Source: Escherichia coli (lineage in GTDB: Bacteria > Pseudomonadota > Gammaproteobacteria > Enterobacterales > Enterobacteriaceae). From it: a stretch of DNA of 64,000 nucleotides. The DNA lies in assembly GCF_024223415.1 (NCBI RefSeq), contig NZ_CP100500.1. One strand, given 5' to 3'. Of this stretch, positions 1-3,000 are shown piece after piece; positions within the stretch are counted from its first letter, which is position 1; each line of letters begins with the position of its first letter. The position numbers are program-made.

Positions 1-3000
1 TCATCATTAAGAGGCGGCGAAGTAACTAAATGTGATAACACTATATCGACTTCACCTTCTTCCAGCGCGTCCATTGCTTTTTGATGATCGGCGTATTCCC
101 GGAGTGTTAATTTGATATTTAACGCTCTTTTTAAAAGATTTAAATAATCAGCATTAATACCACGAACCCGTTGCTGCGAATCGGTATGCAACAACGTAGC
201 CGTTTGGGACTTGTGTACTGCAATCACAAGATTTTTTTTGCTCGCTAACCAACGTAATTCCTTGTTGCTCAGACGTAGTGGATCAAGTGTGACACGGTTG
301 TTACTACTGATGCCACGGTATTCGATGTAATCTTCGTCTGCGAAACTTATGGTCGACCAAAGACCACAACAGAGAAGAAAAATATAGGGTAAAAACTTCA
401 TGTGGTTAGCCGATTTTGTTACGTTGTGCGAATGTGTAAAGATCCATCAGTGATTTACATTCTAATTTTTCCATCAGGCGACTTTTATAAGTGCTGACAG
501 TTTTGTTGCTGATGAACATTTTTTCAGCAATGTCATTATTATCCTTGCCATCAAGAATATAGCGCATGACACTAATTTCTTGTTTCGATAAGGAGTCGAG
601 TTTTTGCTGGTCGGACGTTAAACTTCCAACAAACCGGTTGAGAGAGAAGGGGAAATAGCAGTAGCCATTTTTTGCAGCTTCAATAGCCGCAATGATATTG
701 TTCATGCCTTCTTTTTTACTCACGAAACCATTAGCGCCAGCATCAGCACAATGTTTCCCGTAAAAATGGTCATTTTTAGCGGAGACGATAATAATAATTC
801 CGCTATATTGGCGCTTCCTCAGCGTTTCTAACACCTGGATACCGTTAACTCCGGGGATATCGACATCAATGATGACGATATCAGGCTTAAGTGTTTCCAC
901 CCGCTGAACGGCACTTCCGCCTTCAGTCAACTCTGCTAAGATTTCAATATCGTTTTTGATCAATAAATTACGAATTGCTGCGATAGCAAGAGGATGGTCA
1001 TCAATAATTATTGCGTTCATAGATTATTCCCTTTGCAATGAAGCATCTCCCTTCTCCCTGTAGTAATACAGACATAAGGCATCATCTCATTTTCTCAATA
1101 AAAATAAGAAAATTTGAGCTTCCTTTAAGATAATTCGACAAGTATACCATATAAATAGTCGGCATATATGAAATGTCAACAATAAAATCAGGGATTATAC
1201 CGATGATTTATAGTTTCAAGTTAGCACTATAAGTCTTCTCACTAATCCTACAGGCGTAAGAATTGTATTGCAAAAGCCACGGTTTAGTCCTCTGTTGTTT
1301 TTTTTGCACCTCATTTAAATTAGGCCTCCAACGTTCCTGGGATAATGTGCAACACATGCACTGTGTTTGATATGAAGAATGAATACTCTTTTCATTCAAT
1401 TCATAAATTTCATCTATGCGAAATGAGAGATAATAGTGGAACAGATTAATTCAAATAAAAAACATTCTAACAGAAGAAAATACTTTTCTTTATTGGCGAT
1501 AGTTTTATTTATTGCGTTTTCAGGTGCTTATGCCTATTGGTCAATGGAATTAGAAGACATGATTAGTACAGATGACGCCTATGTCACGGGGAATGCAGAT
1601 CCAATTTCTGCACAAGTCTCAGGTAGTGTCACTGTAGTTAATCATAAAGATACGAACTACGTTCGACAGGGTGACATTTTAGTTTCACTGGATAAAACTG
1701 ATGCCACTATCGCACTCAATAAAGCTAAAAATAATCTGGCAAATATTGTTCGGCAAACGAATAAACTGTACTTACAGGATAAACAATACAGTGCCGAAGT
1801 CGCTTCAGCACGTATTCAGTATCAACAATCTTTAGAAGATTATAACCGTCGTGTGCCTTTAGCGAAGCAGGGGGTTATTTCAAAAGAAACGCTGGAGCAT
1901 ACCAAAGATACGTTAATAAGTAGCAAAGCGGCATTGAATGCCGCTATCCAGGCTTATAAAGCGAATAAAGCTTTAGTAATGAACACACCATTAAACCGTC
2001 AGCCACAAGTCGTTGAAGCTGCGGATGCAACCAAAGAAGCCTGGTTGGCGCTTAAACGTACGGATATTAAGAGTCCGGTTACCGGCTATATTGCCCAGAG
2101 AAGTGTTCAGGTCGGCGAAACAGTGAGCCCCGGACAATCGTTAATGGCTGTCGTACCGGCACGTCAAATGTGGGTTAATGCCAACTTTAAAGAAACACAA
2201 CTCACGGATGTACGGATTGGTCAATCGGTCAATATTATCAGCGATCTTTATGGTGAAAATGTTGTGTTTCATGGCCGGGTGACAGGGATCAATATGGGAA
2301 CCGGCAATGCGTTCTCCTTATTACCTGCACAAAATGCGACAGGGAACTGGATCAAAATCGTTCAGCGTGTACCGGTTGAAGTTTCTCTTGATCCAAAAGA
2401 ACTCATGGAACACCCCTTGCGCATTGGTTTATCGATGACTGCAACTATTGATATGAAGGACGAAGACATTGCTGAGATGCCTGATCTGGCTTCAACCGTG
2501 ACCTCCATGCCTGCTTATACCAGTAAGGCTTTAGTTATCGATACCAGTCCGATAGAAAAAGAAATTAGCAACATTATTTCGCATAATGGACAACTTTAAT
2601 GGCAATCACTAAATCAACTCCGGCACCATTAACCGGTGGGACGTTATGGTGCGTCACTATTGCATTGTCATTAGCGACGTTTATGCAAATGTTGGATTCC
2701 ACTATTTCTAACGTCGCAATACCGACAATATCTGGCTTTCTGGGAGCATCAACAGACGAAGGCACCTGGGTTATCACCTCGTTTGGCGTAGCAAATGCCA
2801 TTGCGATCCCTGTTACCGGCAGGCTGGCACAAAGAATAGGCGAATTAAGGTTATTTTTACTTTCAGTCACTTTTTTTTCGCTGTCTTCCTTAATGTGTAG
2901 TTTATCGACCAATCTTGATGTGCTGATATTTTTTAGAGTCGTTCAGGGATTAATGGCGGGGCCGTTAATTCCACTGTCACAGAGTTTATTATTAAGGAAT

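What the first reader, a model, noticed from the sequence alone, without database searches (positions are those of the whole stretch)
1021..1435. evgA-emrK divergent control region with an EvgA-box-like inverted repeat
The 415-bp region between divergent evgA and emrK contains ATCCTACAGGCGTAAGAA (1245-1262), resembling the EvgA recognition inverted repeat, consistent with EvgA autoregulation and activation of emrKY. The evgAS/emrKY block is also visibly more AT-rich than the core genes, suggesting an old horizontal acquisition.
Basis: partly seen in the sequence, partly recalled or inferred. Interest (0 to 1): 0.2.

Follow-up and report, generated by a model that had tools for sequence, protein, structure and literature searches.

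The report
Known EvgA box between evgA and emrK
The 18-base sequence is the already described docking site for the acid-sensing regulator EvgA in the shared control region of evgA and the emrKY drug-efflux operon of E. coli; it is real and well conserved, but it is textbook biology.

Summary
The window is E. coli, O157-like. evgA lies at 406-1020 (-), emrK at 1436-2599 (+), and the intergenic region is 1021-1435. ATCCTACAGGCGTAAGAA sits exactly at 1245-1262.

The 18-mer matches the EvgA consensus TTCYTACA-N2-TGTARGAA at 14 of 16 specified positions. It is the only match with 3 or fewer mismatches in 64 kb (0.04 expected at 2 or fewer). The same motif, with 0-2 mismatches, lies upstream of the K-12 EvgA targets safA, ydeP, frc and yfdX. 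A scan that used no consensus picked the same 18-mer as the best shared element.

The 38-mer around the box is identical, or differs only at a central unspecified base, in 97% of 5,398 E. coli genomes.

Orientation and spacing fit activation of emrKY, with the box centre near -74 from a predicted start (inferred). The box lies about 110 bp upstream of the annotated evgA start, and published reports disagree on autoregulation.

AT-richness is confirmed: GC 40-42% and GC3 37-42%, against 52% and 55% for the other genes in the window. Old horizontal acquisition is plausible but unproven.

Verdict: already known, low interest.

The parts
1245..1262 (.). EvgA box. It reads ATCCTACA-GG-CGTAAGAA on the + strand (emrK direction) and TTCTTACG-CC-TGTAGGAT on the evgA strand.
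   Evidence: 14 of 16 specified positions match TTCYTACANNTGTARGAA. It is the only hit in the window with 3 or fewer mismatches. It is the best-shared 18-mer with the safA, ydeP, frc and yfdX upstream regions. The consensus-matching positions are invariant in 9 aligned sequences. The surrounding 38-mer is exact in 4,888 genomes, and 372 more differ only at central base 1253.
1316..1321 (+). Predicted emrK -10 hexamer TAAATT. It implies a start near 1328 and a box centre near -74. This is an inference.
   Evidence: A -10-like hexamer starts 53-54 nt after the box in emrK, safA, frc and yfdX. A rotation test gives 336 of 20,000. The block 1311-1322 is invariant, including in the divergent lineage L005. 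No experimental start-site data could be read here.
1436..2599 (+). emrK, the membrane-fusion subunit of the EmrKY-TolC pump and first gene of the EvgA-activated operon.
   Evidence: ORF, RefSeq annotation, Pfam HlyD/CusB domains.
2599..4137 (+). emrY, the MFS permease subunit.
   Evidence: ORF, annotation, Pfam MFS_1.
406..1020 (-). evgA, a response regulator with a LuxR/GerE-type helix-turn-helix domain. This is the protein that reads the box.
   Evidence: ORF, annotation, Pfam Response_reg + GerE.
1..401 (-). 5' end of evgS, the sensor kinase. The gene runs off the window.
   Evidence: Translation starts MKFLPYIFLL; annotation of the matching locus.
1152..1179 (-). evgA core promoter: -35 TTGACA (1179..1174), a 16-nt spacer, and -10 TATTTA (1157..1152).
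   Evidence: The sequence was read directly. It sits immediately upstream of the annotated evgA leader used in PMC11052181, Table S5. Both hexamers are conserved in L005.
1021..1144 (-). evgA 5' leader, about 124 nt, with four GGA motifs. Two of them, GGA2 and GGA4, are reported as the likely CsrA binding sites.
   Evidence: The leader sequence T7-evgA-WT in PMC11052181 Table S5 begins TACTTGTCGAATTA, which is the reverse complement of window 1131-1144. CsrA binding and translational repression are reported in that paper.
1017..1046 (-). evgL, a 9-codon upstream ORF (MLHCKGNNL). Its TGA stop overlaps the evgA ATG.
   Evidence: Annotated in K-12 as b4781. It is intact in the window.

Best explanation
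The 18-mer at 1245-1262 is the EvgA-binding site of the evgA-emrKY divergent control region. EvgS senses mild acid and other signals and phosphorylates EvgA. A dimer of phospho-EvgA (LuxR/NarL-type helix-turn-helix) binds the two TTCYTACA-like half-sites and recruits RNA polymerase to a weak emrK promoter downstream that lacks a good -35. This switches on the EmrKY-TolC efflux pump.

What is shown here:
- The sequence identity, uniqueness and conservation of the site.
- Its recurrence at four other EvgA target promoters.
- A common orientation of the site relative to the activated gene.

What comes from the literature: EvgA binds the emrKY promoter directly and activates it.

What is inferred:
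- The emrK -10 at 1316-1321 and a start near 1328.
- A box centre near -74, which is a class-I-like activator position.
- Possible weaker EvgA half-sites between the box and the -35 region.

evgA itself is read from a promoter with a perfect -35 and a start near 1144, so the box is about 110 bp upstream of that start. Any autoregulation through the box is therefore secondary, or depends on strain or condition.
For: 1. Gene identities and coordinates are confirmed.
2. The consensus match is unique in the window, with 0.04 expected by chance.
3. In 35 kb of K-12 sequence, every hit with 2 or fewer mismatches lies upstream of an EvgA-activated operon: safA (1 mismatch), ydeP (2), frc (0), yfdX (1) and evgA-emrK (2).
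4. The consensus-free scan gave scores of 55-56 for 18-mers starting at 1245 and 1246. The maximum over 30 shuffles was 53.
5. Read in the direction of the activated gene, the emrK, safA, ydeP and yfdX sites all read nnCCTACA-nn-TGTAAGAn.
6. -10-like hexamers share a fixed spacing from the box, p about 0.017.
7. In a divergent Escherichia lineage (L005, about 88-90% intergenic identity by my estimate) the box changes at only two positions, and both changes make it a perfect consensus.
8. 5,260 of 5,398 E. coli genomes carry the 38-mer exactly or with one change at a central unspecified base.
9. Literature: EvgA binds the emrKY promoter directly (PMC8174306). The emrK promoter is used as a direct EvgA reporter (PMC5706723). 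emrKY induction in Shigella requires evgA (PMC6393483). An EvgA site is found at all directly regulated genes (PMC4283999).
Against: - The primary footprint papers (Kato 2000, Tanabe 1998, Masuda & Church 2003, Itou 2009) are not in the held library. I could not confirm that the published DNase I footprint covers exactly 1245-1262, and the consensus string I tested came from memory.
- This copy is a poor literal palindrome (5 of 9 pairs).
- The emrK start site is predicted, not read from data. A stronger -10 match, GATAAT at 1341-1346, would put the box near -100.
- ydeP lacks a good -10 match at the shared spacing.
Confidence: 0.9

Rival explanations
1. The box acts mainly on evgA, giving positive autoregulation of evgAS, and emrKY induction is a by-product or uses other sequences.
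For: - The box is quasi-symmetric and lies between the two genes.
- A review of EHEC two-component systems reports positive autoregulation of evgSA (PMC11644481).
- A perfect TATAAT on the evgA strand at 1199..1194 would give a start near 1187 and place the box centre near -66.
- evgA homologues in Klebsiella and Buttiauxella carry a shared half-box-like 18-mer upstream of the regulator gene, and Buttiauxella has no divergent emrK.
Against: - The annotated evgA start is about 110 bp from the box, and its promoter has a perfect -35 and needs no activator.
- K-12 work cited in PMC8174306 found that evgAS is not autoregulated.
- evgA expression did not change in macrophages while emrK was strongly induced through EvgA (PMC6393483).
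- Box orientation and -10 spacing match the pattern at other activated genes only in the emrK direction.
Confidence: 0.2
2. The 18-mer resembles the EvgA consensus by chance in an AT-rich intergenic region and has no regulatory role.
For: - The literal palindrome is weak (5 of 9 pairs).
- The repeat finder did not report it.
- Lone half-site-like strings occur at roughly chance level, for example TTACTACA in the evgA leader (chance level is my estimate).
Against: - 0.04 matches are expected per 64 kb, and the single hit falls in the one relevant 415-bp region.
- It is the top-ranked shared element in a consensus-free comparison, above all shuffles.
- The specified positions are invariant, while 6 of 7 positions of the 1219-1225 spacer vary in the same nine sequences.
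- The only two changes in L005 move the box towards the consensus.
Confidence: 0.02
3. The site is read mainly by another LuxR/NarL-family or acid-network regulator (for example YdeO, GadE or RcsB) rather than by EvgA.
For: EvgA belongs to a large family with related half-sites (GerE domain). The acid-resistance network has many overlapping regulators (PMC8147483).
Against: - The motif is shared specifically by promoters described as direct EvgA targets (PMC4283999).
- According to PMC8174306, emrKY and ydeP share no known common regulator other than EvgA.
- emrK induction is lost in evgA deletion mutants (PMC6393483).
Confidence: 0.03

Closest known systems
EvgA binding sites of E. coli K-12 at safA-ydeO, ydeP, frc and yfdX
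   Same: All share the 18-bp architecture of two TTCYTACA-like halves separated by 2 bp. All have the same orientation relative to the activated gene, and a -10-like hexamer lies at a similar distance from the box. The K-12 copy of this very site is identical (L001 3514-3531).
   Different: This copy has one mismatch in each half (A for T at 1245, C for T at 1255), so it is less symmetric than the perfect frc site. It serves a divergent gene pair that includes the regulator's own operon.
BvgA sites of Bordetella virulence promoters (fhaB, bvgA). The comparison rests on my own knowledge.
   Same: EvgAS and BvgAS are homologous unorthodox phosphorelays, and PMC8174306 uses the BvgS PAS domain as a modelling template for EvgS. 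The BvgA heptad TTTCYTA shares the TTCYTA core with the EvgA half-site. BvgA uses an upstream high-affinity inverted repeat plus weaker promoter-proximal sites. The AGTCYT element at +24..+29 after the box in emrK, safA and ydeP resembles such a secondary half-site.
   Different: Oligomerisation of EvgA along the DNA is not shown here. The spacing of the halves and the distance to the promoter differ. There is no sequence homology between the promoters.
kvgA-type loci: evgA homologues in Klebsiella pneumoniae ATCC 13883 and Buttiauxella sp. B2
   Same: The homologous response regulators begin MNAIIIDDHPLA... and have a TTCCTACA half-site upstream of the regulator gene.
   Different: Their shared 18-mer TTCCTACAGCTGTCATCC has only one good half-site (4 mismatches). 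It lies 170 and 296 nt from the ATG. In Buttiauxella the upstream neighbour is a co-directional ORF, not a divergent emrK.

Membership tests
EvgA box (EvgA operator sites of E. coli) | An 18-bp site made of two inverted TTCYTACA half-sites separated by 2 bp | tested here: met
   14 of 16 specified positions match, 7 of 8 in each half. The consensus was recalled from memory but is reproduced by the K-12 target promoters fetched here.
EvgA box (EvgA operator sites of E. coli) | Located upstream of an operon whose transcription depends on EvgA | tested here: met
   The site lies 173 nt upstream of the emrK start codon. The EvgA dependence of emrKY comes from the literature (PMC8174306, PMC5706723, PMC6393483, PMC4283999).
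EvgA box (EvgA operator sites of E. coli) | Shared, above background, with other members of the regulon | tested here: met
   The consensus-free comparison ranks 18-mers starting at 1245 and 1246 first, with scores of 55-56 against a shuffle maximum of 53.
EvgA box (EvgA operator sites of E. coli) | Purifying selection on the contacted bases | tested here: met
   No change occurs at any consensus-matching position in 9 sequences. The changes seen fall at the central spacer or move towards the consensus. At least 97% of 5,398 genomes carry the site unchanged or with a central-base change only. With 14 positions and a variable fraction of roughly 19% of sites (my estimate), the nine-sequence test alone is only marginal, p about 0.05.
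EvgA box (EvgA operator sites of E. coli) | Physical protection or gel shift by purified EvgA at exactly these bases | not testable with these tools
   Kato et al. 2000 is cited for direct binding to the emrKY promoter, but neither that paper nor the other primary papers could be read.
Horizontally acquired genomic island | Base composition and codon third-position GC differ from the host core | tested here: met
   GC is 40-42% and GC3 37-42%, against 51.8% and 54.9% for the other ORFs scored in the window. In K-12 the low-GC3 block runs from emrY to ypdI, about 17 kb.
Horizontally acquired genomic island | Patchy distribution among related species | tested here: inconclusive
   The single genome-contig scan, with a 10-residue N-terminal pattern, returned only one divergent Escherichia, Klebsiella, Buttiauxella and one contaminant contig. 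No E. coli-type sequence from a genuine Escherichia genome was returned, so absence elsewhere cannot be inferred.
Horizontally acquired genomic island | Variable presence within the species, or mobility genes or a tRNA at the borders | tested here: not met
   The locus is present in 5,398 of 5,426 complete E. coli genomes. No integrase or tRNA lies at the emrY/dsdA border. The nearest tRNA, Arg-CCT at 11350-11424, is 7 kb away beyond dsdA and the csc genes. Any acquisition therefore predates the diversification of E. coli.

The most novel reading that the evidence does not exclude
The contradictory reports on evgAS autoregulation (absent in K-12, positive in EHEC) may have a cis-acting cause. 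A second evgA promoter may exist whose -10 hexamer at 1199..1194 has three common alleles in E. coli, with the box centred near -66:
- TATAAT in this O157-like window and 850 genomes;
- TACAAT in K-12-type strains, 2,962 genomes;
- TATCAT in B2-type strains, 1,102 genomes.

On this reading the strength of the EvgA feedback loop would be an allele-dependent, naturally varying trait.

A related open point is the conserved inverted repeat ATTTATAGT/ACTATAAGT (1206-1234) with a hypervariable spacer. Its right arm also occurs at the safA promoter, in the same register relative to the box. It could be an undescribed second operator.
Probability: 0.1. Interest if true: 0.35.

Novelty: already known. 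Interest (0 to 1): 0.08.

Why it matters
The site is the cis element that links an acid- and alkali-metal-sensing phosphorelay to a multidrug and bile efflux pump. The emrK promoter is a standard reporter of EvgS/EvgA activity. Confirming the site adds no new biology. It does show that this strain's copy is intact and identical to the K-12 copy.

Two things go slightly beyond the textbook. First, five EvgA promoters appear to share one architecture: a common box orientation and a -10-like hexamer about 53-54 nt after the box. Second, a -10-like hexamer on the evgA strand exists in three common alleles across E. coli, which is a cheap, testable lead on why autoregulation reports differ between strains.

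Tried and rejected
**Literature**
Searches for the site sequence, the consensus string and 'EvgA box' found nothing.
- The primary papers could not be read by PMID, PMC id or DOI. The published footprint coordinates and the emrK start site therefore remain unverified.
- One broad search on ChIP, DAP-seq and SELEX terms was uninformative.

**Sequence checks that found nothing**
- The generic sigma-70 scan found no convincing promoter in the region, 1 hit against 2.6 expected. Its rule that the -10 must end in T excludes the evgA -10 TATTTA.
- A terminator-like hairpin at 1347-1361 was followed up by folding the predicted emrK leader. The z-score was -1.59, which is not significant.
- Rfam found nothing in 900-1600 at E-values up to 1.
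- The 63-codon ORF at 1208..1399 (-) across the box was treated as spurious. It has a TTG start, is not annotated in K-12 or in the matching strain, and spans promoter DNA.

**Other readings of nearby sequence, from my own reading of the sequence**
- CRP-like, PhoP-like and IHF-like readings of the flanking repeats were considered. The matches are weak, and the CRP-like half is lost in K-12.

**Wider searches**
- The genome-contig scan with a degenerate evgA N-terminal pattern returned too few loci for a broad phylogenetic footprint or a distribution test.

Full report
**What is in the sequence**

The window is E. coli. The 415-bp region 1021-1435 is 100% identical to strain 2013C-4465 and 99.8% identical to an O157:H7 strain. 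It is present in 5,398 of 5,426 complete E. coli genomes.

The ORFs and RefSeq annotation give:
- evgS 5' end at 1-401 (-)
- evgA at 406-1020 (-)
- emrK at 1436-2599 (+, GTG start)
- emrY at 2599-4137 (+)

Pfam domains fit these names.

**Is the 18-mer an EvgA box?**

The consensus I recalled is TTCYTACA-N2-TGTARGAA, which I attribute to Masuda & Church 2003. I could not read that paper, so I tested the consensus rather than assumed it.

- In the window, the only site with 3 or fewer mismatches is 1245-1262, which has 2. Shuffles give 0.04 expected at 2 or fewer mismatches.
- I fetched the K-12 regions around known EvgA-activated operons. All hits with 2 or fewer mismatches in those 35 kb lie in the upstream regions of safA (1 mismatch), ydeP (2), frc (0), yfdX (1, plus a second 3-mismatch site 38 bp away) and evgA-emrK (2).
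- I then ran a comparison that used no consensus. Every 18-mer of the window's intergenic region was scored by its best match in each of the four other upstream regions. The top-ranked 18-mers start at 1246 and 1245, with scores of 56 and 55. The mean was 45 and the maximum over 30 shuffles was 53.

The box is therefore the element this region shares with the rest of the regulon. As a literal palindrome this copy is weak, with 5 of 9 pairs. Its identity rests on each half matching the half-site at 7 of 8 positions.

**Conservation**

I aligned nine sequences: the window, K-12, six diverse E. coli, and a divergent Escherichia lineage, L005, whose intergenic identity I estimate at about 88-90%.

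The box varies at only three positions:
- 1253, a central unspecified base, in one strain.
- 1245 (A to T) and 1255 (C to T), both in L005.

The two L005 changes remove the two mismatches and create a perfect consensus, TTCTTACACCTGTAGGAA.

Across complete genomes, the 38-mer 1241-1278 is exact in 4,888 genomes. A further 372 carry only the G1253T change. Together these are 97% of the genomes that have the region.

**How it most likely works**

Literature held here states four things:
- EvgA binds the emrKY promoter directly (PMC8174306, citing Kato 2000).
- The emrK promoter serves as a direct EvgA reporter (PMC5706723).
- Induction of Shigella emrKY in macrophages requires evgA (PMC6393483).
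- An EvgA site is found at all directly regulated genes (PMC4283999).

From the sequences themselves:
- Read in the direction of the activated gene, the emrK, safA, ydeP and yfdX sites all read nnCCTACA-nn-TGTAAGAn.
- A -10-like hexamer starts 53-54 nt after the box in emrK (TAAATT, 1316-1321), safA, frc and the proximal yfdX site. A rotation test reached the observed count in 336 of 20,000 trials.
- The block 1311-1322 is invariant, even in L005.

I therefore infer an emrK start near 1328. That puts the box centre near -74, over a promoter with no recognisable -35, which is typical of an activator-dependent promoter. This architecture is an inference. A stronger -10 match, GATAAT at 1341-1346, remains an alternative.

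**The evgA side**

The evgA leader used in PMC11052181 (Table S5) begins at the reverse complement of window 1131-1144. This gives a start near 1144 and a leader of about 124 nt.

Directly upstream lie a perfect -35, TTGACA (1179..1174), and a -10, TATTTA (1157..1152). Both are conserved in L005. The box centre is therefore about 110 bp upstream of this start.

The leader carries four GGA motifs, two of which the paper reports as the likely CsrA sites, and the 9-codon evgL uORF (1046..1017), whose stop overlaps the evgA ATG.

Autoregulation is disputed. PMC8174306 cites evidence against it in K-12. PMC11644481 cites positive autoregulation in EHEC. The box position and orientation favour emrK as the primary target.

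**Composition and origin**

evgS-5', evgA, emrK and emrY have GC of 40-42% and GC3 of 37-42%. The other 41 ORFs scored in the window average 51.8% GC (sd 4.4) and 54.9% GC3 (sd 7.3). GC rises at the emrY/dsdA border.

In K-12 the low-GC3 block continues through evgS, yfdE, yfdV, oxc, frc, yfdX and ypdI, about 17 kb in all. It ends before yfdY and lpxP. The block thus holds the regulator together with three of its box-bearing target operons. That fits acquisition as a unit.

The locus is core in E. coli and has no mobility genes at its border. Old horizontal acquisition is plausible but not demonstrated.

**Comparison with what is known, and verdict**

This is the known EvgA operator of the evgA-emrKY region, identical to the K-12 copy. 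Its closest relatives are the EvgA sites at safA, ydeP, frc and yfdX. From my own knowledge, the mechanism resembles BvgA sites, which share the TTCYTA core.

All sequence-level membership criteria are met. Physical binding at exactly these bases could not be checked here.

Novelty: already known. Interest: low.

The only mildly new leads are the three-allele -10-like hexamer on the evgA strand and a conserved inverted repeat with a hypervariable spacer next to the box.

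Noticed in passing
window 1194-1199 (- strand): A perfect TATAAT lies on the evgA strand, 46-51 nt from the box. It has three common alleles in E. coli: TATAAT (exact 48-mer in 850 genomes, including O157:H7 and O111), TACAAT (2,962, K-12 type) and TATCAT (1,102, as in O25:H1 strain CU39ES-1). All three keep TAnnAT. It may be a second, possibly EvgA-dependent, evgA promoter.
   Followed up: partly
window 1206-1234: Inverted repeat ATTTATAGT / ACTATAAGT. Both arms are invariant in 9 sequences, while 6 of the 7 spacer positions 1219-1225 vary. ACTATAAG also occurs 19 nt before the safA EvgA box, in exactly the same register (L003 6101-6108). This may be a second operator or an auxiliary EvgA half-site.
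   Followed up: partly
window 1286-1291; K-12 L003 and L004 promoters: AGTCYT lies at +24..+29 after the box in emrK, safA and ydeP. CTCTCTGATT lies at +23..+32 in frc and the proximal yfdX site. These are shared promoter-proximal elements of unknown role. They resemble secondary half-sites of the BvgA type.
   Followed up: no
window 1017-1046 (- strand): The 9-codon uORF evgL (MLHCKGNNL) is intact. Its stop codon overlaps the evgA start (ATGA), and the reported CsrA site GGA4 overlaps the evgA Shine-Dalgarno sequence inside it.
   Followed up: partly
L007 1175-1192 and L008 4244-4261: The evgA homologues of Klebsiella pneumoniae ATCC 13883 and Buttiauxella sp. B2 share the identical 18-mer TTCCTACAGCTGTCATCC upstream of the regulator gene, 170 and 296 nt from the ATG, in otherwise poorly alignable DNA. 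It has one good EvgA-type half-site only.
   Followed up: partly
L006 (NZ_JAEUAT010000078.1, 398 bp): A 398-bp contig in a 'Rhizobium cauense' assembly encodes an N-terminal EvgA fragment identical to E. coli EvgA. This is almost certainly E. coli contamination of that assembly.
   Followed up: no
L015 (E. coli NCTC10444), corresponding to window ~1195 onwards: An IS1 element sits in the intergenic region after window position 1195. The EvgA box and emrKY are replaced by a fimbrial operon. This is a natural strain that has lost this arm of the regulon.
   Followed up: no
K-12 loci L001 and L004 (emrY to ypdI): The low-GC3 block (37-42%) spans about 17 kb. It contains evgAS plus three operons with EvgA boxes (emrKY, frc-oxc-yfdVE, yfdX), bounded by dsdA and by yfdY/lpxP. 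The regulator and part of its regulon are co-located and share the same composition.
   Followed up: partly
window 4246-9607 and 11350-11424: Next to emrY, dsdA is a full-length 442-codon ORF in the window, although the closest genome annotates its copy as a pseudogene. dsdX is reduced to a fragment (5592-5810). A LacI-family regulator gene and cscA follow in the matching strain's annotation, and I read the next ORF (8693-9607, 304 codons) as cscK from memory. tRNA-Arg(CCT) is at 11350-11424 (-). An unusually AT-rich ORF (GC 32.7%) is at 13663-14943 (-).
   Followed up: no
window 1347-1361: A small hairpin, GTGCA-ACACA-TGCAC, followed by a T-rich stretch lies in the predicted emrK leader. L005 has one compensatory pair change (C1350A with G1358T). 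The leader as a whole does not fold better than shuffles (z = -1.59).
   Followed up: partly
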